Origin: an uncultured Acidobacteriota bacterium
Lineage (GTDB): Bacteria > Acidobacteriota > Vicinamibacteria > Vicinamibacterales > UBA2999
Reading direction: 5' to 3'
Length of the DNA: 64,000 nt
Assembly (NCBI GenBank): GCA_963841905.1
Contig: CAWJEM010000022.1
Coordinates: forward strand, 92,835-156,834
The notes beneath the pieces are model-generated. The model worked only from the letters and a program-made list of their open reading frames with translations. It was not told the DNA's origin and did no database searches. The position numbers and the translations under genes are program-made. Below, one piece after another: positions 1-64,000 of the stretch. Within the stretch, counting starts at the first letter, position 1. Every line of letters starts with the position of its first letter.

Positions 1-1198
1 GCTTTCGGTGAGCATCTGACGTACGAGCCGTCCCCGCCGCGCGCCAAGCGCCCCACGCATCCCGACCTCTCGCGTGCGCGCGGCGCTCCGCGCGAGCAGC
101 AGATTCGCGACGTTGACGCAGGCCACCACGAGGACGAGCGCCACCGCACCCGCGAGCGTGAGCAGGGCGGGCCGAATCTCTCCGACCATCTGATCCTGCA
201 GGCGGAAGAGCATCACGGAGCGTCCCGCATTCCGCTGCGGTTCCTCCCGCTCGAGCGCGGCGTAGATCGCCCGCATCTCGGTGGAGGCGTCGTCGAACGA
301 CAGACCGTCACGCAGGCGCGCGATGGCGTACGAGCCCCCGCGCCCCAGGTACCGCGCGAAGCTGTTCCGTCGTGAGGCCATACGGCATCAGGAAATCGGC
401 GTGCTGCCCGGCGATCGTGAAGCGCGGCGGCATGATGCCGATCACCGTGCGGCGCTCTCCGTCCGTGGTCAGCGTCAGGTCGAGCACGTCGGGCCTGCCG
501 CCCAACGCTCGCTGCCAGAATTCGTGACTGAGCACCATCACGGAGGTGCCGCCGTCTTCCGCGGCGGTGTAGGCGCGTCCGCGTGCCGGCGCAACACCCA
601 AGGCGCGAAACACCTCGGACGAGGCACTGAGCCCGGCAATCTGGAGCGGCTCGCCATTCAGCGTGATGGCGACAGACCGCGACCCCACCATCGCGAGATG
701 CTCGAGGGTCTGAACGCGCTCTCGCCAGGCGACGAAGTTGGCTGGCGCGATCGAATTGCGATTGACGCCGCCGCGAGTCGTTTCCCAGACGGCCACGATT
801 CGCTCGGGCTCGCGATAGGGCAACGGCTCGAGCATCACCGTGCGGATCACACTGAACATCGCGGCGGTCGCGCCGACGCCGAGTGCGAGCGTCAGCAACG
901 CCGGAACCGTGAACCCTGGGGTGCGGAGGAACGACCGCACGCCGAACCGCAGATCCTGCACCACGCTATCGATGTGTGCTTCCCACCCGACATCGCGCAC
1001 GCGGTCTTTAATCGCCTCGACGCTGCCGACCTCGACGCGTGCCGTTCGCGTCGCCACTTCGCGCGGCAATCCCGAGGAGATCTTCTGTTCGATGGCCATG
1101 TCCAGATAGGCGCGCAGCTCCTCGTCGAGTTCGCGTTCGACGCGGTTTTTCCAAACGAGCGCACGAAGACCCGACACAAGGCGATTAAGACGCCTCAT
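1..1198 (-). pseudogene. ADOP-family (MacB/FtsX-like, duplicated) ABC permease; 3' end lies beyond the window; frame broken near 350-365
   Basis: From ATG 1196-1198 (ATGA overlap with the padR stop), ORF 308..1345 reads MRRLNRLVSGLRALVWKNRVERELDEELRAYLD...LALGVGATAAMFSVIRTVMLEPLPY, a canonical ADOP N-terminus, and stops at 308. My translation of another minus frame of 1..360 continues YLGRGGSYAIARLRDGLSFDDASTEMRAIYAALE...VACVNVANLLLARSAARTREVGMRGALGA (FtsX TM region). Confidence 0.85.
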
Positions 1199-1545
1199 CA
1201 CAGTTCCCCTGGTGCAGCTCTTAGAATGCGCGCGATGGCCGAAGTCTGCAGTTCCCAGTCGCGCGTCTCCCGTTTCAGACCGGCACGTCCCTCGGCGGTG
1301 AGCGTGTAGTACTTCGCGCGGCGATTGTTCTCGCTGGTCCGCCACTCACCGACAATCAGACCGTCACGCTCCAGGCGCCGCAGGGCTGGAAAAAGCGAGC
1401 CCGCGTTGACATGAAAGACGCCCCTGCTGATCTGCTCCAGGCGCACACCGATGCCGTAGCCGTGCATCGGCTCCAGCGCGAGCGTCTTGAGAATAAGCAT
1501 GTGCAGCGTTCCCTGCACGAGGTCCCGCTGTTCTCCTCTAGTCAA
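1198..1545 (-). CDS. PadR family transcriptional regulator
   Basis: 115 aa: LVQGTLHMLILKTLALEPMHGYGIGVRLEQISRGVFHVNAGSLFPALRRLERDGLIVGEWRTSENNRRAKYYTLTAEG is a typical PadR winged helix. TTG start. Its stop overlaps the permease ATG. Confidence 0.95.
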   Translation of the reverse strand: MTRGEQRDLVQGTLHMLILKTLALEPMHGYGIGVRLEQISRGVFHVNAGSLFPALRRLERDGLIVGEWRTSENNRRAKYYTLTAEGRAGLKRETRDWELQTSAIARILRAAPGEL

Positions 1546-10724: not shown

Positions 10725-12239
10725 TCAGTTGACAACGACGCCGGAGGCGTACTCAAGTGTGCGGGACTGAATCATCTCAGCGATTCGATCGAGATCAGGA
10801 GCCGGCGGCCGATCATCCCCCAGCATCGCGACGTGTTGACGCACCGCCGCATGCACCTGCATCAGTGAATCGGATGATGCGAGCGGCGACAGCAAGTCGA
10901 TCGCCTGGCACGCACACAAGACCTCGACGGCGATCACGTTGATCGCCAGCTGCAAGGCGCGTTCCGCCTTCAGGGCCGCGGCCATGCTCATGCTGACATG
11001 ATCTTCCTTGTTCGCCGACGTCGGAATCGTGTCGACGCTGGCGGGATGGGCCAGTGTCTTGAGCTCGGAGGTGAGCGCGGCGGCCGTCACCTGGGCGATC
11101 ATCAAGCCCGAGTGCAGCCCGCCGTGCCGAGTGAGGAAGGCTGGCAGGCCGCTCAGCGCCGGGTTGACGAGGCGTTCGGAGCGTCGTTCGCTGATCGTCG
11201 CCAGCTGGGTGAGTGCGATCACCAGCAGATCGGATGCCACGGCCACTGGCGCGCCGTGAAAGTTGCCGCCCGAGACGATTTCGCCGGCCTCGGCGAAGAC
11301 CATCGGATTGTCGGTCGCTGAATTCATCTCGATGCGGATGACGTTGTGAACCCACGTGAGCGCGTCGCGCGCCGCACCATGGACCTGAGGCGCACATCGC
11401 ATCGAATAGGCATCTTGAACCCGACCGCAATTGGCGTGCGCCCGATTGATGCCGCTGCCGGTAATGAGCCGGGTAAGGTTGTCCGCGACCGTCCGTTGTC
11501 CCGCGAACGGTCGAGCCTCGTGAATCCGCCCTTCGAACGGCCGAACCGAGCCCTGAAGGGCATCGATGGAGAGGGCAGCGGCGACGTCGGCCGCCCGAGC
11601 GAGCCGTTCGGTGCCGGCGACGGCCAGCGCCGCGACCGCCGTGGACACTTGCGTGCCGTTGATGAGCGCGAGCCCTTCTTTCGGGCCCAGCACGACCGGC
11701 TCAATCCCCGCCTCGTCGAGCGCCTGTTTCGCGGGACGGGTCTCGTGACCGTCCCACACCTCGCCTTCGCCAATCAACACGAGCGCCATGTGTGCGAGCG
11801 GCGCGAGGTCGCCGCTGGCGCCGACCGATCCGCGACTGGGCACGCGAGGATGCACGCCGCGGTTCAACGCCGTGACGAGCGTGTCGAGCGTCTCGAGTCG
11901 GATGCCTGAAAAACCTTTGGCGAGGACGTTGGCGCGCAGGGCCATGGCCGCCCGCACGGCACGAATCGGCAGGGGCTTGCCGACACCGGCAGAGTGACTG
12001 CGGAGCAAGTTGATTTGGAGCTGCGCCACGTCCTCGCGCGGGATTCGTGTTTCAGCGAAAGAGCCAAACCCGGTGTTGACTCCATAGATCGGACGGTCGC
12101 CATCGGCCAGTGCATCGACGACGCGGCGAGCGGCTTGCACTTGCGCGCGCGCGTCCGGCGTGATGGCGATCGGCTCGCGCCCATCGGCGATGGCCACGAG
12201 TTGGTCGATGGTCAGGTCGTGGCCGTTCAATTCGATCAT
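10725..12239 (-). CDS. hutH: Histidine ammonia-lyase
   Basis: 504 aa, PIYGVNTGFGSFA...SRGSVGASGDLAPLAHMAL (ASG MIO motif)...NGTQVSTA...DAYSMRCAPQVHGA. Confidence 0.95.
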   Translation of the reverse strand: MIELNGHDLTIDQLVAIADGREPIAITPDARAQVQAARRVVDALADGDRPIYGVNTGFGSFAETRIPREDVAQLQINLLRSHSAGVGKPLPIRAVRAAMALRANVLAKGFSGIRLETLDTLVTALNRGVHPRVPSRGSVGASGDLAPLAHMALVLIGEGEVWDGHETRPAKQALDEAGIEPVVLGPKEGLALINGTQVSTAVAALAVAGTERLARAADVAAALSIDALQGSVRPFEGRIHEARPFAGQRTVADNLTRLITGSGINRAHANCGRVQDAYSMRCAPQVHGAARDALTWVHNVIRIEMNSATDNPMVFAEAGEIVSGGNFHGAPVAVASDLLVIALTQLATISERRSERLVNPALSGLPAFLTRHGGLHSGLMIAQVTAAALTSELKTLAHPASVDTIPTSANKEDHVSMSMAAALKAERALQLAINVIAVEVLCACQAIDLLSPLASSDSLMQVHAAVRQHVAMLGDDRPPAPDLDRIAEMIQSRTLEYASGVVVN

Positions 12240-12257
12240 GTCACGACAATGATAATG

Positions 12258-13822
<1,565 letters not shown>

Positions 13823-17403: not shown

Positions 17404-19788
17404 ATGCGTTTGGACATTCTGACCGCGTGGCGACAACTACGTCGGGCGCCGGGCACGGCCGTAGCTGCGATTGCCACCCTGGCGGTCGGTATCGGCGCCA
17501 CGACGGCTGTTTTCTCGTTCGTCACCGCGGTCATGTCAGCGGCGTCTCCCGCGCCTGATATGGAAGGCGTGGTTGCTGTGTGGTCACATAATCGCAACGA
17601 ATCCGAAACCAAAGGGCTGGTTTCGCCAGCCGATTTTCTCGACTGGGGGAGACGCTCCACCTCCTTCGATGCAGTGGCCGCATGGCGCGGGACGCAGATC
17701 AACGTCAGCGGAACGACGACTGCAGTCCGTACGGACGCCATGGTGGTGACGCCCTCATACCTGCAGATCTTTGACTGGCGCCCAATGCTTGGCAGGCCAT
17801 TCACGGATCAGGATGCGCTGAGCGGTGCGCCTCGAACCGCGATTGCGTCCTATCCGTTCTGGCAGAACACGCTCAACGGCCGGCCAGACGTGATCGGCCA
17901 CACGATCAGACTGGATGGCGCGCCCGCGACCATCATCGGCGTGCTGCCGCGGCTGCCGGCGCTGACCGGACTCCTGCTGCCGTTGTCGCTGGACGCACAG
18001 CAGTCGGAGCGCAGCGCGCGTACGCTCTTCGTGTTCGCGCGGCTGCGCTCAGGTGTGTCAATCGAGGCCGCTCGCGCGGAGATGGAGTCCATCGGCCAGG
18101 CGCTCGAGCGCGACTTTCCCGACACCAATCGCGGATGGTCGGTCAACACGCGGCCCGCCCAGGAGGAGTTCGTCGGCCCGCAAGCGCGTCTCGTGTTTGC
18201 GCTGCTCGTGGGGCTCGTCACCGCAGTGCTGTTGATTGGGTGTGTCAACGTCGCCAACCTCCTGCTCGCGCGAGGGGCCTCGCGTCGTGGCGAATTGGCA
18301 GTGCGACTGGCGCTCGGCGCAGGCGGGTGGAGGGTCGCGCGCCAACTGTTGATCGAGTGCGCGGTATTGGCGGTGCTTGGCGGTGTGCTGTCGCTCGTCG
18401 TGTCGCGGTGGACGCTCAACCTGCTGATGACCTTGGGCTCGATCGATTCGCCCTGGGTCGCCAACGGCGGCATCAATCCTCGCGCGTTGCTCCTCACCGC
18501 GCTCGCCAGCCTTGCCGCAACCGTGCTTGCCGGTCTGGCGCCTGCGCTGTCGGCGCGCCGGGCGAACCTCGTGTCCGGTTTGCACGACTCAGGTCGCTCC
18601 GGAGGAAGGGGTACACGCCGCACGACACGAATCCTGGTGACCGCCCAGGTCGCCATGGCCGTCGCCTTGCTGGTTGTCGCGGGCCTCGCGACTCGCACAC
18701 TCATCGCACTCGAGCGGTTGGAGCCGGGGTTCGAGATGGAGAATGTCCTGACCGCGTCGGTCACCTTGCCGGACTCGATGCCGCCCGACGTGGCCCATCG
18801 CTGGATTGAGGAGTCGATCGATCGGGCGCGGCGACTGCCGGGCGTCGTCGCCGCGGGCGCCACGTCACGTCTGCCGTTTGCCGGCGGGCGCTGGAACGCG
18901 AATCGTGGGCTCGAGATCGAAGGGCAGTCGGCCACGACGTCGGAGGGACGCTGGGCCGTTGACTATGTGATCACCCCGGGACTCTTCGAGTCGCTCCGCG
19001 TCCCGCTGGTTGACGGCCGGCTGTTCGCGCCCAGCGACGGCGCGGAGACGCAGCCGGTTGCAATCGTGAACCAAGCAATGGCGCGACGATTCTGGCCCAA
19101 CCGGTCGCCGATCGGCGCGCGGCTCCGCCAAGGAGGGACAGACAGCGTTTGGCGAACCGTCGTGGGTGTCGTCGCCGATATCCGCAATGACGATGCCGAC
19201 CAGCCACCGTTGCCGTATCTCTATGTACCGCTGGCTCAGGAACCCATTCGAACGGTGTCGATCGCCATCCGCACAGCGAACGATCCCGCGAGGCTCGCCG
19301 ACCCGCTGCGACAAGCGATCGCGGCATTTGATCCCGATCAGCCACTCTATGACGTTCGGACGATGGTCGACCTGTGGGCAGCGGATCTTCAGGGCTCTCG
19401 CATCCTCATCCAGGTGATGAGCGCGCTCGCGCTGATCGCGCTGGGCCTGGCCGGCCTTGGTGTCTGGGGGGTTGCCGCCCAAGCCGTCGGGCAGCGCACC
19501 CGCGAGATCGGCGTCCGGGTTGCGCTGGGCGCAAGCGCTGCTCAAGTCGGCCGATTGATTGCGTGGCAGGGGTTCGTGCCGATTGCGATTGGCCTTGCGA
19601 TTGGACTGGTTGTGGGACTGGGCCTCGGTCGCGTGATGCGCAGCATCCTGTTCCAGGTCACGCCAACCGATTCGCTCACGCTCGCCGGCACGCTGACGCT
19701 GCTCGCGCTAGTCGGACTCGCGGCAACTCTCGGCCCCGCCCTGCGAGCCGCTCGCCTCGACCCGCTGGCGGCGCTAAGGACGGAGTAA
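17404..19788 (+). CDS. ADOP-family (MacB/FtsX-like, duplicated) ABC permease
   Basis: 794 aa in one frame. MRLDILTAWRQLRRAPGTAVAAIATLAVGIGATTAVFSFV...CVNVANLLLARGASRRGELAVRLALGAG...REIGVRVALGASAAQV (two FtsX modules). Confidence 0.9.
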   Translation: MRLDILTAWRQLRRAPGTAVAAIATLAVGIGATTAVFSFVTAVMSAASPAPDMEGVVAVWSHNRNESETKGLVSPADFLDWGRRSTSFDAVAAWRGTQINVSGTTTAVRTDAMVVTPSYLQIFDWRPMLGRPFTDQDALSGAPRTAIASYPFWQNTLNGRPDVIGHTIRLDGAPATIIGVLPRLPALTGLLLPLSLDAQQSERSARTLFVFARLRSGVSIEAARAEMESIGQALERDFPDTNRGWSVNTRPAQEEFVGPQARLVFALLVGLVTAVLLIGCVNVANLLLARGASRRGELAVRLALGAGGWRVARQLLIECAVLAVLGGVLSLVVSRWTLNLLMTLGSIDSPWVANGGINPRALLLTALASLAATVLAGLAPALSARRANLVSGLHDSGRSGGRGTRRTTRILVTAQVAMAVALLVVAGLATRTLIALERLEPGFEMENVLTASVTLPDSMPPDVAHRWIEESIDRARRLPGVVAAGATSRLPFAGGRWNANRGLEIEGQSATTSEGRWAVDYVITPGLFESLRVPLVDGRLFAPSDGAETQPVAIVNQAMARRFWPNRSPIGARLRQGGTDSVWRTVVGVVADIRNDDADQPPLPYLYVPLAQEPIRTVSIAIRTANDPARLADPLRQAIAAFDPDQPLYDVRTMVDLWAADLQGSRILIQVMSALALIALGLAGLGVWGVAAQAVGQRTREIGVRVALGASAAQVGRLIAWQGFVPIAIGLAIGLVVGLGLGRVMRSILFQVTPTDSLTLAGTLTLLALVGLAATLGPALRAARLDPLAALRTE

Positions 19789-39767: not shown

Positions 39768-40603
39768 GACGCGCCTCGGACAGCGACCCGGTGAACTGTC
39801 GAACGGCGCGCCAGTACAGCCTCCGCGTCGGGCGGCACGGGCTCGTTGTGCTCACCGCCCGGAAGCGTGACGAAGGTCTTGGGACCGGGGAGTGCGGCAT
39901 ACAGGCGCTGCCCCAGACGATGGGGAATGACGCTGTCACGGTCGCCGTGCAGCACGAGCGTGGGTTGTCGGACGCCGGCCATCCAGTCGACCGTCGGCAT
40001 TCGATAGCTCGATCCCCAGGACAGCACCCACATCACCGGATTCGTTTCGAGCACCGAGCGCATGGACGGAAAGCCCGATTCGAGCACGATTCCGTCAGGT
40101 GCGCGCCGACTGGCCGCATACGCGGCCATTACCGTGCCCAGCGAACGCCCCCAATAAATGAGGGGTCGTGACCTGTCGTGCGGTCGCTCGTCGACGAATC
40201 GAAGCGTGGCATCGACGTCGCGATAGAGTCCCTGCTCCGAAGGCGTGCCCGTGCTCAGGCCGTAGCCCCGATAGTCGATGGCCAGGACGTCGAAACCCTG
40301 GCGCCAGAGTTCGACGAGCACATCGCTCCACACCGACAGGTTGCCGCCGTTGCCATGAAAGTACACGACATCAGCGTGCGCGTCTGGTCGCGCGAGATGC
40401 CACGCATGGAGACGCTCGCCATCGTCGGTCGTCAACGTCAGGGGTTGGTACTCGACACCCGACGAACGCGGGGTCGCTGTTTCGCCCGCGAACGGAAAGA
40501 AGGCGAGTCGAGGTTCGAGCCACCGTACCAGCCACACCACAAGCGCGAGCACCACGAGAACTACGAGGGGAGTCGTTGCCCAATTTCTCAACGAAGGTTC
40601 CAT
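39752..40603 (-). CDS. Alpha/beta hydrolase (S33/BAAT-like)
   Basis: VVYFHGNGGNLSVWSD...LAIDYRGYGLSTG...IYWGRSLGTVMAAYAA...VLHGDRDSVIP. The track start at 40627 (TTG) lies in the 8-mer repeat; ATG 40603 (MEPSLRN...) is the alternative. Confidence 0.8.
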   Translation of the reverse strand: MEPSLRNWATTPLVVLVVLALVVWLVRWLEPRLAFFPFAGETATPRSSGVEYQPLTLTTDDGERLHAWHLARPDAHADVVYFHGNGGNLSVWSDVLVELWRQGFDVLAIDYRGYGLSTGTPSEQGLYRDVDATLRFVDERPHDRSRPLIYWGRSLGTVMAAYAASRRAPDGIVLESGFPSMRSVLETNPVMWVLSWGSSYRMPTVDWMAGVRQPTLVLHGDRDSVIPHRLGQRLYAALPGPKTFVTLPGGEHNEPVPPDAEAVLARRSTVHRVAVRGASYFFI

Positions 40604-40668
40604 GGTTCCATGGTTCCATAGTTCCAAGGTTCGAAGTACAGAACCCTGGAACCCTGGAACCCTGGAAC
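40596..40668. repeat. 8-nt unit array hairpin: (GGTTCCAT)n and (GAACCCTG)n
   Basis: ggttccat ggttccat ggttccat agttccaa ggttcg aagtaca gaaccctg gaaccctg gaaccctg gaac, lying between or over two divergent start codons. Confidence 0.9.
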
Positions 40669-61711: not shown

Positions 61712-62614
61712 ATGGTCCGTGTGATGGTTTTCGCCGGCGTGGTGACACTCGCGGGCCAGCAACCGACGGCACCGCCGGCGGGCGGCGCTCAGACACCGCC
61801 GGGCACCGACATCTACGAGCTCGCGTTCAGCGGCCGGCTCGAGACGCTCAAGGAAGCAACCCCGCAACCCATCAGCGTTGCGCCGGGCTACGACAATCAA
61901 CCCTTCTACACGCCCGACGGCGCAGCCGTGTTGTTTACGGCCAATCGTGACGGTAAGCAGACGGACATCTACGAATTCGATCGCGCGGCGCGGCGCGTCC
62001 GGCAACTGGTTGCGACCCCCGAAGGCGAGTATTCGGCAACCATCACGCCGGATGGCAAAGGCTTCAGCGTGATCCGCGTCGAAGCCGACGGGACACAACG
62101 CCTGTGGCGCTTCGACCGCAACGGCAGCAACCCGAAGGTCGTGCTTTCCGAGATCAAGCCAGTCGGTTATCACGCCTGGGTGGATGCGGATCGATTGGTC
62201 CTCTTCATCCTCGGCAAGCCGTCAACGCTTCAGACCGCACCGGTGTCAACCGGCAAAGGTACTGTCGTGGCCAGCAACGTCGGCCGTTCGATCCTGCGCA
62301 TGCCGGGCGGCAACTCCATCAGCTTCGTCGAGCGCCTGGAGAACGGTGAACACTGGGTGAAAGAGCTGAATCCCACGACCGGCGTGAGCACGCCGCTGGT
62401 GATGGCGCCCGCCGGCTCGACCGAGCGGGATTGCGCGTGGCTGCCGGATGGTACGCTCCTCATGTCGGCCGGCGCACGAATCGTGGCGTGGCGGCGAGGT
62501 CAGGGATGGCGTGACGTCTACGATGTGGCCATCCACAAACTGGGCGCCGTGACACGGATGGCGGTGGCGCCGGATGGGCGGAGTATGGCCATCGTGGTGA
62601 ACGAGGGAAAATAG
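61712..62614 (+). CDS. TolB-like (PD40/WD40-like) beta-propeller protein, secreted
   Basis: GYDNQPFYTPDGAAVLFTANRDGKQTDIYEFD...EGEYSATITPDGKGFSVIR...MAVAPDGRSMAIVVNE. Confidence 0.6.
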   Translation: MVRVMVFAGVVTLAGQQPTAPPAGGAQTPPGTDIYELAFSGRLETLKEATPQPISVAPGYDNQPFYTPDGAAVLFTANRDGKQTDIYEFDRAARRVRQLVATPEGEYSATITPDGKGFSVIRVEADGTQRLWRFDRNGSNPKVVLSEIKPVGYHAWVDADRLVLFILGKPSTLQTAPVSTGKGTVVASNVGRSILRMPGGNSISFVERLENGEHWVKELNPTTGVSTPLVMAPAGSTERDCAWLPDGTLLMSAGARIVAWRRGQGWRDVYDVAIHKLGAVTRMAVAPDGRSMAIVVNEGK

Positions 62615-62618
62615 ACCC

Positions 62619-62825
62619 ATGAGCTTCTGCGAACACTGCCAGGGACAACGTTTCGACCGGGCCCGCGTCCTCCGGGCGCTGCGGCAGATCCGCAAGGACC
62701 TGCGTGCCCCCGATCGCGGGGGACCGCTCGACCATGCGATTTTCACCGCGCTCGAGACGGTGCGAGCCCTCGACATCCCACACCTCGAGCCTGAAGAGGT
62801 CGAGGAGAATCAAGTGATTCACTAA
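62619..62825 (+). CDS. Small hypothetical protein (68 aa, CxxC near the N-terminus)
   Basis: MSFCEHCQGQRFDRARVLRALRQIRKDL... Starts 4 nt after the previous stop, behind GAGGGA. No family recognised. Confidence 0.3.
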   Translation: MSFCEHCQGQRFDRARVLRALRQIRKDLRAPDRGGPLDHAIFTALETVRALDIPHLEPEEVEENQVIH

Positions 62826-63070
62826 CGTCGGTTCTTGACGGGGGTTCTTCACGGAGGTTCTTGACGAGGGTTCGACAAAGGTTCTTTGACGACAGTTCAT
62901 CGGCGAACGAACCATCGTGAAGAACCGTCTCGTGAAGAACCTTCGTCAAGAACCTTCGTCAAGAACCTTCGTCAAGAACCTTCGTGAAGAACCCTCGTGA
63001 AGAACCCTCGTGGAGAACCCTCGGCGAACCATCTTTGAGAACCTTCGTAGAGAACCGTTGTGGAGAACCT
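62826..63070. repeat. 13-nt unit array: about 5 GGTTCTTSAC-type units, then about 12 GTSAAGAACCYTC units up to the next start codon
   Basis: cggttcttgac gggggttcttcac ggaggttcttgac ... gtgaagaaccttc (gtcaagaaccttc)x3 (gtgaagaaccctc)x2 gtggagaaccctc ... gtggagaacct gATG. The last unit supplies GGAGA as the RBS. Confidence 0.9.
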
Positions 63071-63071
63071 G

Positions 63072-64000
63072 ATGGATCGCCTTCTTCAAGATCTCAGAGT
63101 CGCCATCCGCACCCTCGCCCGCCAGCGGACGTTCTCGCTCATCGCCATTCTCACGCTCGCCCTCGGCGTGGGCGCGACGACCGCGATCTTCAGCGTGGTG
63201 TACGGCATTCTGCTGCGTCCGCTCCCATACGCCGAATCCAGCCGGCTCGTCACGCTGGGGCAGACTGCCAAGAGTGATCCGCAGGAGCCGGTCGATGGGT
63301 CCAGCTCGCACGTGAACTTCCTCGACTGGAAGCAGTCGAGCAAGACGATCCCCTCGATGGCGATGTACTCAGGGGGTCGGGCGGTCATCAGCAACCAGGG
63401 TGCAGCCGACGTCGTTCGGATCGGCAGCGTCACGCCGGGCTTTTTCGACGTGTTCCGCGCGACTCCCATCTCGGGGCGCGAATTCACGGCGGAAGAGAAC
63501 CAACCGACTGGCCCGCGCGCGGTCGTCGTCAGCTATGGCTTCTGGCAGGACCGGCTTGGAGCCAGGCTCGACGTGCTGTCGCAGACGGTCGAGATCAGCG
63601 GCGTGCCGTGGCCCATTGTGGGCGTTGCGCCGCGCGGCTTCGACTTTCCGAACGGCGCGCGTCTTTGGATGCCCGTCCGCAACAACGACGAGCAGTGTGG
63701 TCGTGGGTGCGTGTATCTGAACGGGATCGGTCGCCTCGCGAACGGCGCGACGGTGGAGGCGGCGCAGGATGAAATGACGGCCGTTGCTTCCGCCCTCGAA
63801 CGCGATTTTCAAGGCGACAATGCCAACGTCACGGTCATGGTGCAAAGCCTCCACGATCGCACGGTCGGGAGCGTCCAGCTGGCGCTCGTCGTGTTGCTGG
63901 CCGCCGTCACCATGGTGCTGCTGATTGCGTGTGCGAACGTGGCCAATCTCTTGTTGGTCCGTGGCGCGGCGCGCCAGAGTGAGATCGCAGTTCGAACCGC
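63072..64000 (+). CDS. ADOP-family (MacB/FtsX-like) ABC permease, 5' part (runs off the window)
   Basis: Not in the track because it is open-ended. My translation from ATG 63072: MDRLLQDLRVAIRTLARQRTFSLIAILTLALGVGATTAIFSVVYGILLRPLPYAESSRLV...ACANVANLLLVRGAARQSEIAVRT, in one frame for 929 nt. Confidence 0.9.
   Translation, partial: MDRLLQDLRVAIRTLARQRTFSLIAILTLALGVGATTAIFSVVYGILLRPLPYAESSRLVTLGQTAKSDPQEPVDGSSSHVNFLDWKQSSKTIPSMAMYSGGRAVISNQGAADVVRIGSVTPGFFDVFRATPISGREFTAEENQPTGPRAVVVSYGFWQDRLGARLDVLSQTVEISGVPWPIVGVAPRGFDFPNGARLWMPVRNNDEQCGRGCVYLNGIGRLANGATVEAAQDEMTAVASALERDFQGDNANVTVMVQSLHDRTVGSVQLALVVLLAAVTMVLLIACANVANLLLVRGAARQSEIAVRT

What the first reader, a model, noticed from the sequence alone, without database searches (positions are those of the whole stretch)
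62826..63070. 13-mer array forming the whole upstream region and RBS of an ADOP permease gene
It belongs to the same 13-nt family as the hutH/purA gap 50 kb away. About 5 complementary units are followed by about 12 GTSAAGAACCYTC units, including three identical consecutive copies. The last variant, GTGGAGAACC, provides the GGAGA Shine-Dalgarno 5 nt before ATG 63072. Unlike the first ADOP gene, this one has no PadR gene. The array may be its regulatory region.
Basis: partly seen in the sequence, partly recalled or inferred. Interest (0 to 1): 0.6.

Follow-up and report, generated by a model that had tools for sequence, protein, structure and literature searches.

The report
Repeat hairpin inflating an operon spacer
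The 13-base repeat array in front of this permease gene is real. It is one copy of a fast-changing, hairpin-forming repeat family scattered between unrelated genes in this soil acidobacterium, not a control region made for this gene.

Summary
The 246-nt gap between the stop codon at 62825 and the ADOP ATG at 63072 consists of 5 GGTTCTTSACGNN units, a 14-nt centre and 13 NNCGTSAAGAACC units. The last unit carries GGAGA 5 nt before the ATG.

The interpretation does not hold. This genome has at least 56 two-armed and 26 one-armed copies of the same family, and the GGTTC arm always comes first. They lie between unrelated genes. Only 3 of 67 ADOP genes have one upstream and 4 have one downstream.

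The array starts 4 nt after the stop of a conserved 68-aa CxxC gene, so it fills an intercistronic spacer. At the orthologous site the spacer is 246 nt here, 199 nt in a 92%-identical relative and 32 nt (three units, no left arm) in a third congener. More distant orthologues have no array. Only the GTGGAGAACC unit next to the ATG is conserved.

Units grow by local duplication within an arm. The RNA would fold into a stem of about 80 bp (-140 kcal/mol).

The closest precedent is the inverted heptamer arrays of Xanthomonas. The function is unknown.

This scan had already reported the same repeat class on other pieces of this genome, including the sister locus at 12258-12512.

The parts
61712..62614 (+). 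PD40/TolB-like beta-propeller gene (300 aa), first gene of the co-directional run
   Evidence: ORF. PF07676 PD40 at E 1.9e-10. Weak TolB hit.
62619..62825 (+). Conserved small gene (68 aa, MSFCEHCxGQRFDRARVLRALR...LDIPHLE...VVH) with no known family; its stop TAA is at 62823-62825
   Evidence: Single-copy homologues at 55-97% identity in 19 of 41 relatives, in varied contexts. No Pfam or NCBIfam hit. GAGGGA lies about 10 nt before its ATG.
62830..62894 (.). Left arm: 5 units of GGTTCTTSACGNN, three clean and two degenerate (11 and 15 nt)
62895..62908 (.). Centre or loop of the element (AGTTCATCGGCGAA, a decayed unit)
   Evidence: It forms the unpaired tip in the folds.
62909..63069 (.). Right arm: 13 units of NNCGTSAAGAACC, with three identical copies at 62943-62981
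62825..63012 (+). Predicted long hairpin of about 80 base pairs, formed by the left arm and the first 7-8 right-arm units
   Evidence: RNA MFE -140.5 kcal/mol, z -11.4, 0 of 200 shuffles as stable. DNA fold -76 kcal/mol, z -9.7. Same stem in a wider context.
63013..63071 (+). Excess right-arm units outside the main stem. The last unit, GTGGAGAACC, holds the GGAGA Shine-Dalgarno-like motif at 63062-63066.
   Evidence: The unit is conserved in G005 and G008.
63072..64000 (+). 5' part of an ADOP family permease gene; it runs past the window end, about 800 aa in the genome
   Evidence: TIGR03434 at E 8.5e-95 on the part inside the window. Full-length hit of 868.9 bits at G000:C22:155915-158302.
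12260..12516 (.). Sister element of the same 13-nt family, between the divergent genes ending at 12239 (minus strand) and starting at 12533 (plus strand)

Best explanation
The array is one copy of a dispersed, lineage-restricted family of intergenic elements. Each element is built from two facing runs of a 13-nt unit: (GGTTCTTSACGNN)n, a centre, then (NNCGTSAAGAACC)m. It is not specific to ADOP genes.

Shown:
- The family has at least 82 loci in this genome, and the GGTTC arm always comes first.
- It occurs in all kinds of intergenic gaps.
- Its abundance ranges from 0 to 217 three-unit matches among species of one Vicinamibacterales genus.
- Unit numbers differ at almost every orthologous site compared.
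- Neighbouring units in an arm are identical far more often than distant ones, while the two arms are no more alike than unrelated elements.

Inferred:
- Each arm grows and shrinks by replication slippage.
- The paired part can be lost as a block by hairpin-stimulated deletion, which leaves one-armed remnants.
- At this locus the element sits in what is, in a relative, a 32-nt spacer between a small conserved gene and the ADOP gene. It has inflated that spacer to 246 nt.
- Selection has held only the unit next to the ATG, which serves as the ribosome-binding site.
- The ADOP gene is most likely transcribed together with the two upstream genes, through the element.
- In the RNA the element would form a stem of about 80 bp. 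That stem could protect the upstream message's 3' end, attenuate read-through or be cut by RNase III, much as REP elements act inside operons. This would be a by-product and not a dedicated switch.
For: Family census: 56 two-armed elements are all in the order GGTTC arm then GAACC arm, none is in the reverse order, and 26 are one-armed. The same order holds in 21 of 21 two-stranded loci from other MAGs. Every 7- and 8-nt sister family shows the same rule (56/56, 50/50, 14/14 and so on).

Not ADOP-specific: 3 of 67 ADOP genes have an element upstream and 4 have one downstream. The split among convergent, divergent and tandem gaps (13/6/37) does not differ from the baseline (p 0.24).

Lineage-restricted burst: three-unit matches number 217 in G000, 100 in G005, 72 in G006, 15 in G008, 4 in G002 and 1 in G007, with 0 in five other congeners and 0 for the reversed control pattern.

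Orthologous site: the spacer is 246, 199 and 32 nt, with GTGGAGAACC next to the ATG kept in all three. G001, G004, G007, G010 and G012 have no array.

Fourteen other sites: unit counts differ nearly everywhere. G008 has spacers of 0-31 nt at five of them, and other repeat families occupy the same gap at three.

Slippage: identical unit pairs make up 9.2% of adjacent pairs, 3.7% of non-adjacent pairs in the same arm, 1.0% of pairs across arms and 0.6% of pairs from different elements.

Block loss: at G000:C4:115486 a relative with 96% identical flanks lacks exactly the left arm plus the paired right-arm units. This is a 108-nt indel with AAC at both junctions.

Hairpin: -140.5 kcal/mol, z -11.4.

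Read-through is plausible for the class: two-armed heptamer arrays lie inside the S10 ribosomal-protein operon, at the rplW|rplB and rplB|rpsS junctions. At least six 13-mer elements fill whole spacers between co-directional genes.

No sigma-70-like promoter or U-tract terminator lies in the array.
Against: - Co-transcription, read-through and any RNA processing are inferred only.
- ADOP genes are mildly enriched for neighbouring 13-mer elements (odds ratio about 4, Fisher p 0.04 upstream and 0.02 downstream). I cannot explain this.
- Several 'empty' sites in G008 still hold one unit-like word, for example ACGCGGTTCG and CAGTGAAGAAC. The unit itself might therefore have a function, or arrays might grow from seeds instead of being lost.
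- Slippage alone does not explain the fixed arm order.
- Gene positions come from my own crude codon-usage caller, which missed the 68-aa gene.
- The 13-mer stems are much longer than the heptamer hairpins seen inside the ribosomal operon, so tolerance of read-through may not carry over.
Confidence: 0.78

Rival explanations
1. Operator array: the GAAGAACC units are binding sites for a DNA-binding regulator that controls this PadR-less ADOP gene.
For: The array covers the whole gap before the ADOP start and contains many identical sites. ADOP genes are weakly enriched for such elements.
Against: - 64 of 67 ADOP genes lack it upstream, and 4 carry it downstream.
- The same units flank more than 100 unrelated genes.
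- The array is reduced to three units or absent in orthologues.
- A 13-bp spacing puts successive sites on different faces of the helix (general knowledge).
- The family is missing from most congeners that keep many ADOP genes.
Confidence: 0.04
2. Contingency switch: changes in unit number alter the 5' leader or intercistronic RNA and so tune ADOP expression. The model is the heptamer repeats upstream of hmw1A in Haemophilus influenzae, which work through a 5'-UTR structure and RNase III.
For: Unit numbers differ between close relatives at this site. Three identical copies point to recent slippage. A long double-stranded RNA stem lies just before the ribosome-binding site. There is a precedent in PMC12721329.
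Against: The same behaviour is seen at every other locus of the family, whatever the neighbouring gene. Any tuning here would therefore be incidental. There is no within-population or expression data.
Confidence: 0.1
3. Terminator or 3'-end element of the upstream genes: the hairpin ends or stabilises the PD40-small ORF transcript, and the ADOP gene has its own start signal in the unpaired tail.
For: The element starts 4 nt after a stop codon. Family members sit a median of about 12 nt from the upstream stop but 40-80 nt from the next start. All array families together are about 1.7-fold enriched in convergent gaps. In Xanthomonas, similar repeats hug stop codons and transcripts often end in them (PMC4692102).
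Against: - No U-tract follows the stem, and no promoter-like site lies in the 58-nt tail.
- The G008 spacer of 32 nt leaves no room for a terminator plus a promoter.
- Arrays of the same class lie inside the S10 operon.
- For the 13-mer family alone, the distribution across gap types is not different from the baseline.
- Closeness to stop codons is also expected simply because sequence before a start codon is constrained.
Confidence: 0.15
4. Miniature transposon: GGTTCTTSACG units are terminal or subterminal inverted repeats bound by a transposase, and whole two-armed elements are inserted at new sites.
For: The arm order is fixed, as expected for terminal inverted repeats. Presence and absence vary between congeners. 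Copy-number differences look like bursts.
Against: - No target-site duplication or conserved sequence is seen outside the units.
[quoted passage not shown] One of them is present in all eight congeners searched, including three with no arrays.
- No match in viral contigs.
- 'Empty' sites often keep a unit-like word.
Confidence: 0.1

Closest known systems
Inverted GGGAATC heptamer arrays of Xanthomonas (and GGGGAYT repeats of Nostoc), Rehm et al. 2015, PMC4692102
   Same: Short units are repeated in tandem in intergenic DNA. In 70-75 cases per Xanthomonas genome, two arrays face each other in one fixed ('convergent') orientation and can form stem-loops. There is a strong bias to lie at or next to stop codons. 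The function is unknown.
   Different: The unit there is 7 nt and G-rich, with a quadruplex-forming reading, and typically about 4 units long. Here the unit is 13 nt and not G-rich, arms reach 15 units, stems reach about 80 bp, and the family is limited to part of one acidobacterial genus.
REP / BIME / REPIN elements (GTAG- and CGTC-tagged palindromic repeats, PMC3733652)
   Same: Both are high-copy, extragenic, mostly downstream of genes and arranged head-to-head. They form RNA hairpins, their abundance varies strongly between related species, and CGTC-type REPs lack a dedicated transposase. REP elements inside operons are known to stabilise the upstream message (general knowledge: malE-malF).
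   Different: Each REP unit is itself a stem-loop of 20-40 bp. The 13-nt unit here is not self-complementary, so the hairpin exists only between two arrays. No link to RAYT genes was found.
TAACTGA direct heptamer repeats of marine Beggiatoaceae and cyanobacteria (PMC4679880), and cyanobacterial STRR heptamers
   Same: These are intergenic tandem short units, often directly upstream of start codons where they replace the usual ribosome-binding site. Indels occur in whole units between strains.
   Different: They are direct arrays with only one indirect repeat among 169 sets, they are oriented with the downstream gene, and the unit is 7 nt.
Heptamer repeats upstream of hmw1A/hmw2A in Haemophilus influenzae (PMC12721329, PMC8262952)
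   Same: Tandem units lie between the promoter and the start codon. Repeat number changes the 5'-UTR structure, RNase III processing and expression (abstract).
   Different: Those repeats are a locus-specific contingency switch with a single direct array. They are not a genome-wide two-armed family.

Membership tests
Genome-wide 13-nt two-armed repeat family of this genome (the family of the hutH/purA gap element) | Unit NNCGTSAAGAACC with 13-nt spacing | tested here: met
   Unit profile from 718 units.
Genome-wide 13-nt two-armed repeat family of this genome (the family of the hutH/purA gap element) | GGTTC arm upstream of GAACC arm | tested here: met
   This locus has 5 minus-sense then 13 plus-sense cores. 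The order holds in 56 of 56 elements in the genome.
Genome-wide 13-nt two-armed repeat family of this genome (the family of the hutH/purA gap element) | Intergenic position and unit number that varies between relatives | tested here: met
Inverted short-tandem-repeat arrays of the Xanthomonas GGGAATC type | Tandem short unit, paired arrays on opposite strands in one fixed orientation, close to stop codons | tested here: met
   compared with PMC4692102.
Inverted short-tandem-repeat arrays of the Xanthomonas GGGAATC type | Heptameric G-rich unit able to form a G-quadruplex | tested here: not met
   The unit is 13 nt and has no G-tract.
REP / REPIN | Each unit is itself an imperfect palindrome (stem-loop) of 20-40 bp | tested here: not met
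   The 13-nt unit is not self-complementary. Pairing occurs only between arms.
REP / REPIN | Conserved GTAG or CGTC tag at one end of the unit | tested here: inconclusive
   CGT is 70-75% conserved at unit positions 3-5, followed by G (42%) or C (33%). However, this sits inside a tandem unit and not at the head of a stem-loop.
REP / REPIN | Associated RAYT (Y1 transposase) gene flanked by the repeats | tested here: not met
   There are two PF01797 genes. Neither has a 13-mer array of this family within 1.5 kb. A homologue of one of them is present in all eight congeners searched, including three without arrays.
[quoted passage not shown] | Target-site duplication and defined termini | tested here: not met
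   No duplication or conserved flank was seen in 56 elements or in five filled-versus-empty alignments. The boundaries are blurred by decayed units.
Operator or iteron array of a transcription factor | Sites confined to the regulon's promoters and conserved in orthologous promoters | tested here: not met
Intrinsic (Rho-independent) terminator | GC-rich stem followed by a U-tract | tested here: not met
   The scan finds no terminator-like site in 62600-63300, and the sequence after 63012 has no T run.
Any described RNA family (Rfam 15) | Match at or above the gathering score | tested here: not met
   Only two chance-level hits, at E 0.14 and 0.27.

The most novel reading that the evidence does not exclude
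The 13-nt family, and its 7- and 8-nt sisters with the same fixed arm order, may be produced by a dedicated machinery that has not been identified. The family went from 0 to more than 200 three-unit matches within one genus. Such a machinery would seed a GGTTC...GAACC palindrome next to gene ends and expand it. In operon junctions such as this one, the resulting stem of about 80 bp would then work as a heritable, quickly adjustable valve that sets how much of the upstream transcript reaches the ADOP gene.
Probability: 0.1. Interest if true: 0.65.

Novelty: new variant of a known kind. Interest (0 to 1): 0.33.

Why it matters
The result removes a tempting but wrong reading, namely a regulator-binding array for an orphan permease.

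It also gives a clean natural series at one operon junction (32, 199 and 246 nt). That series could be used directly to test what these abundant repeat hairpins do to transcription and translation. This is still an open question for the comparable repeats of Xanthomonas and cyanobacteria.

About a quarter of the intergenic gaps of 50 nt or more in this genome carry such arrays. Any effect would therefore bear on gene expression and genome stability across the whole organism. It would also bear on gene calling and assembly of Vicinamibacterales MAGs.

Tried and rejected
1. ADOP-specific element: rejected by the census of 67 ADOP genes.
2. Sigma-70 promoter inside the array: none found. By hand, the TTGACG words in the units have no -10 partner at 17 nt.
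3. A sigma-54 promoter like the GGCAY-N5-TTGC motif seen in distant orthologues: absent here and present in only 1 of 67 paralogues.
4. REPIN/RAYT system: no association.
5. Arm-to-arm copying (template switching that keeps the arms matched): no signal. Arm consensus distance within elements equals that between elements (permutation p 0.54), and identity between opposite-arm units is at background level.
6. Phage origin: 0 matches in viral contigs.
7. Known RNA family: none.
9. A composition rule for the fixed arm order, such as a G+T-rich first arm: it does not hold across families.
10. Target-site duplications at filled-versus-empty sites: none seen.
11. Which state is ancestral at this locus, three units or the full element: not resolved. 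A 108-nt indel with AAC microhomology at another site favours block loss of the paired part, but growth from seeds is not excluded.

Full report
**1. What is there**

The stop codon of an ORF is at 62823-62825 and the ADOP start ATG is at 63072. The 246 nt between them are almost entirely 13-nt units.
- TRF reports GGTTCTTGACGGG x3.4 at 62830-62873 and GAACCTTCGTGAA x12.5 at 62909-63070, with score 166.
- By eye there are five GGTTC-cored units on the left. Three are clean; two are degenerate, 11 and 15 nt long.
- A 14-nt centre follows, then thirteen GAACC-cored units on the right.
- Three identical consecutive copies lie at 62943-62981.
- The two-unit pattern GAACCNNCGTNNAGAACC occurs 17 times in the 64-kb window. 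All 17 are here or at 12261-12483, and none was seen in 100 shuffles.
- GGAGA (63062-63066) lies 5 nt before the ATG.
- The ADOP profile TIGR03434 starts aligning at residue 4 of this start. In the closest relative an in-frame TAA precedes the ATG.

**2. The neighbours**

The ORF that ends 4 nt before the array (62619-62825, 68 aa, CxxC near the N-terminus) is a real gene. Single-copy homologues with 55-97% identity occur in 19 of 41 related genomes, in many different contexts. It matches no Pfam or NCBIfam model. It follows a PD40/TolB-like gene (61712-62614) after 4 nt.

The array therefore fills the spacer between co-directional genes. It is not a free promoter region. No sigma-70-like promoter or U-tract terminator is predicted in it, and it matches no Rfam family.

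**3. The family**

I laid the whole genome (5.58 Mb, 24 contigs) in the Python box and chained GGTTC and GAACC cores with roughly 13-nt spacing.
- This gives 56 two-armed elements and 26 one-armed ones.
- All 56 have the GGTTC arm first. None has the opposite order, and no two like-sense arrays sit side by side.
- The same order holds at 21 of 21 loci from other MAGs that have matches on both strands.
- The many 7- and 8-nt unit families of this genome obey the same kind of rule, each with its own fixed order (56/56, 50/50, 14/14 and so on).
- Using my own codon-usage gene caller (4684 genes), all elements are intergenic.
- The two-armed 13-mer elements are spread over convergent, divergent and tandem gaps as 13/6/37. 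This does not differ from the baseline (p 0.24).
- In tandem gaps they lie a median of about 12 nt from the upstream stop and 40-80 nt from the next start.
- At least six, including this one, fill the whole spacer between co-directional genes.
- Genome-wide, 736 gaps hold a short-unit array. That is 26% of gaps of 50 nt or more.

**4. Test of the ADOP idea**

The genome has 67 ADOP genes. Three have a 13-mer element within 150 nt upstream and four have one downstream. Among all genes the counts are 53 and 75 of 4684.

This is a weak enrichment (odds ratio about 4, p 0.04 and 0.02). It applies equally to both gene ends. 64 of 67 ADOP genes have no such upstream array.

**5. The orthologous site**

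| Genome | Relation to G000 | Spacer between small gene and ADOP ATG | Content |
|---|---|---|---|
| G000 | this genome | 246 nt | full two-armed element |
| G005 | 92% identical over the 2.3-kb query | 199 nt | both arms, more decayed |
| G008 | 80-83% identical | 32 nt | three right-arm units, no left arm |

The G008 spacer reads TAG-AACCTTCGGCAAGAACCTTCGTGGAGAACCTA-ATG. In all three genomes the unit next to the ATG is GTGGAGAACC.

In G001, G004, G007, G010 and G012 the ADOP orthologue has neither the small gene nor any array upstream. The array is therefore not needed for an expressed-looking ADOP orthologue. Only the unit that carries the ribosome-binding site is conserved.

**6. Dynamics at other sites**

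For 14 other elements I located the orthologous gaps in G005 and G008.
- Unit counts differ at nearly every site, even where flanks are 96-98% identical.
- G008 has 0-31 nt at five sites. At these sites the two genes then sit at operon-like spacing.
- Three sites hold a different repeat family in one of the relatives.
- At G000:C4:115486 the relative G005 lacks exactly the left arm, the centre and the paired right-arm units. This is a 108-nt indel with AAC at both junctions, and it leaves two right-arm units. The remnant is of the same kind as the one G008 has at the ADOP site.
- Several 'empty' sites still contain one unit-like word. Loss and growth from a seed therefore cannot be told apart.

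**7. How the arrays change**

Among 718 units, the share of identical pairs is as follows:

| Pair type | Identical pairs |
|---|---|
| Adjacent units in the same arm | 9.2% |
| Non-adjacent units in the same arm | 3.7% |
| Units in opposite arms of one element | 1.0% |
| Units in different elements | 0.6% |

Arm consensus sequences within an element are no closer than those between elements (permutation p 0.54). Each arm therefore evolves by local duplication and loss. The arms pair only because every unit shares the conserved CGT..AGAACC positions.

**8. Distribution**

Three-unit matches per genome:

| Genome | Matches |
|---|---|
| G000 | 217 |
| G005 | 100 |
| G006 (60% complete) | 72 |
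| G008 | 15 |
| G002 | 4 |
| G007 | 1 |
| Five other species of the genus | 0 |

Ten of 151 genomes of the family have at least one match. The reversed control pattern gives 0 everywhere. Public records with the pattern are almost all Acidobacteriota or Vicinamibacterales MAGs. No viral contig has it.

Two Y1-transposase genes exist in G000. They are not flanked by these arrays. One of them has homologues in all eight congeners searched, including three without arrays.

**9. Structure and likely effect**

As RNA, 62815-63085 folds at -140.5 kcal/mol (z -11.4). The stem runs from 62825 to 63012 and has about 80 pairs. The last 58 nt, including the GGAGA, lie outside it.

Arrays of the same class, with heptamer units and two arms, lie inside the S10 ribosomal-protein operon at the rplW|rplB and rplB|rpsS junctions. 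The class is therefore compatible with transcription running through it.

My best reading is that the ADOP gene is co-transcribed with the two upstream genes through the element. The stem may then act like a REP element inside an operon, through 3'-end protection, partial attenuation or RNase III cutting. All of this is inference.

**10. Comparison with what is known**

The nearest described case is the GGGAATC arrays of Xanthomonas. These are tandem heptamers. In 70-75 cases per genome they form two facing arrays in one fixed orientation. They are strongly biased to stop codons, and their function is unknown (PMC4692102).

REP/REPIN elements share the extragenic, head-to-head, hairpin-forming and patchily distributed character. 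However, their units are themselves stem-loops, and GTAG-type REPs come with RAYT genes (PMC3733652). Both of those features were tested here and not met.

Direct heptamer repeats upstream of start codons (PMC4679880) and the hmw repeats of Haemophilus (PMC12721329) are functional analogies only.

**11. Verdict**

The regulatory-region reading is not supported, apart from the ribosome-binding-site unit.

The element is a 13-nt-unit variant of a known but unexplained kind of intergenic repeat hairpin. Earlier stages of this scan had already described the same class on other pieces of this genome and at the sister locus 12258-12512. My independent results agree with those notes.

New results here are:
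- the strict arm order across genomes;
- the evidence that each arm changes by slippage on its own, without arm-to-arm copying;
- the burst-like distribution within one genus;
- the operon-junction position, with a natural 32/199/246-nt series.

Noticed in passing
L004, L005, L007, L008 (ADOP orthologues of G001, G004, G010, G012), 16-20 nt upstream of the ATG: A conserved GGCA(C/T)-N5-TTGC word, which looks like a sigma-54 -24/-12 promoter, sits just upstream of the ADOP orthologues that lack the array. It is absent from G000, G005 and G008, and present upstream of only 1 of 67 ADOP paralogues in G000.
   Followed up: partly
G000:C16:485006-486002 (outside the window): Two-armed heptamer arrays (ACGGTCT/CCGTGGG and AGTTACA/TTGTAAC) lie inside the S10 ribosomal-protein operon, at the rplB|rpsS and rplW|rplB junctions. 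The nuo operon has none at its 11 junctions.
   Followed up: partly
62619-62825: A 68-aa protein (MSFCEHCxGQRFDRARVLRALR...LDIPHLE...VVH) is conserved as a single copy in 19 of 41 related genomes across several families. It has no Pfam or NCBIfam match and is easily missed by gene callers.
   Followed up: partly
G000:C22:62971-63262 and 70754-71062 (outside the window): Two nearly identical 13-mer elements (14-15 left units, 6 right units) with identical flanks lie 7.8 kb apart, which suggests a recent segmental duplication. C13:131855 and C14:1231 also share flanks, probably because of a contig-end overlap.
   Followed up: no
L030, L028 (G008) and L049 (G005): Gaps that hold a 13-mer element in G000 hold arrays of a different unit family in a congener, for example GGAGTTCG/CGAACTCC and CTCAGAGAC/GTCTCTGTG. 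The same gaps are therefore repeatedly occupied by different families.
   Followed up: no
L043 (G005:C5:143524-146859): In G005, the two arms of the element orthologous to G000:C8:88193 are separated by an extra stretch of about 600 nt inserted at the centre.
   Followed up: no
40596-40668 and genome-wide: The commonest 8-nt family (first arm AAGGTTCC, second arm GGAACCTT) shares the GGTTC/GAACC core and the same arm order as the 13-nt family.
   Followed up: no
whole genome G000: There are 67 ADOP-family permease genes in a 5.6-Mb genome. The one at the window start has a PadR gene upstream (1198-1545, minus strand). The one at 17404-19788 has an M20 peptidase gene divergently upstream instead.
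   Followed up: partly
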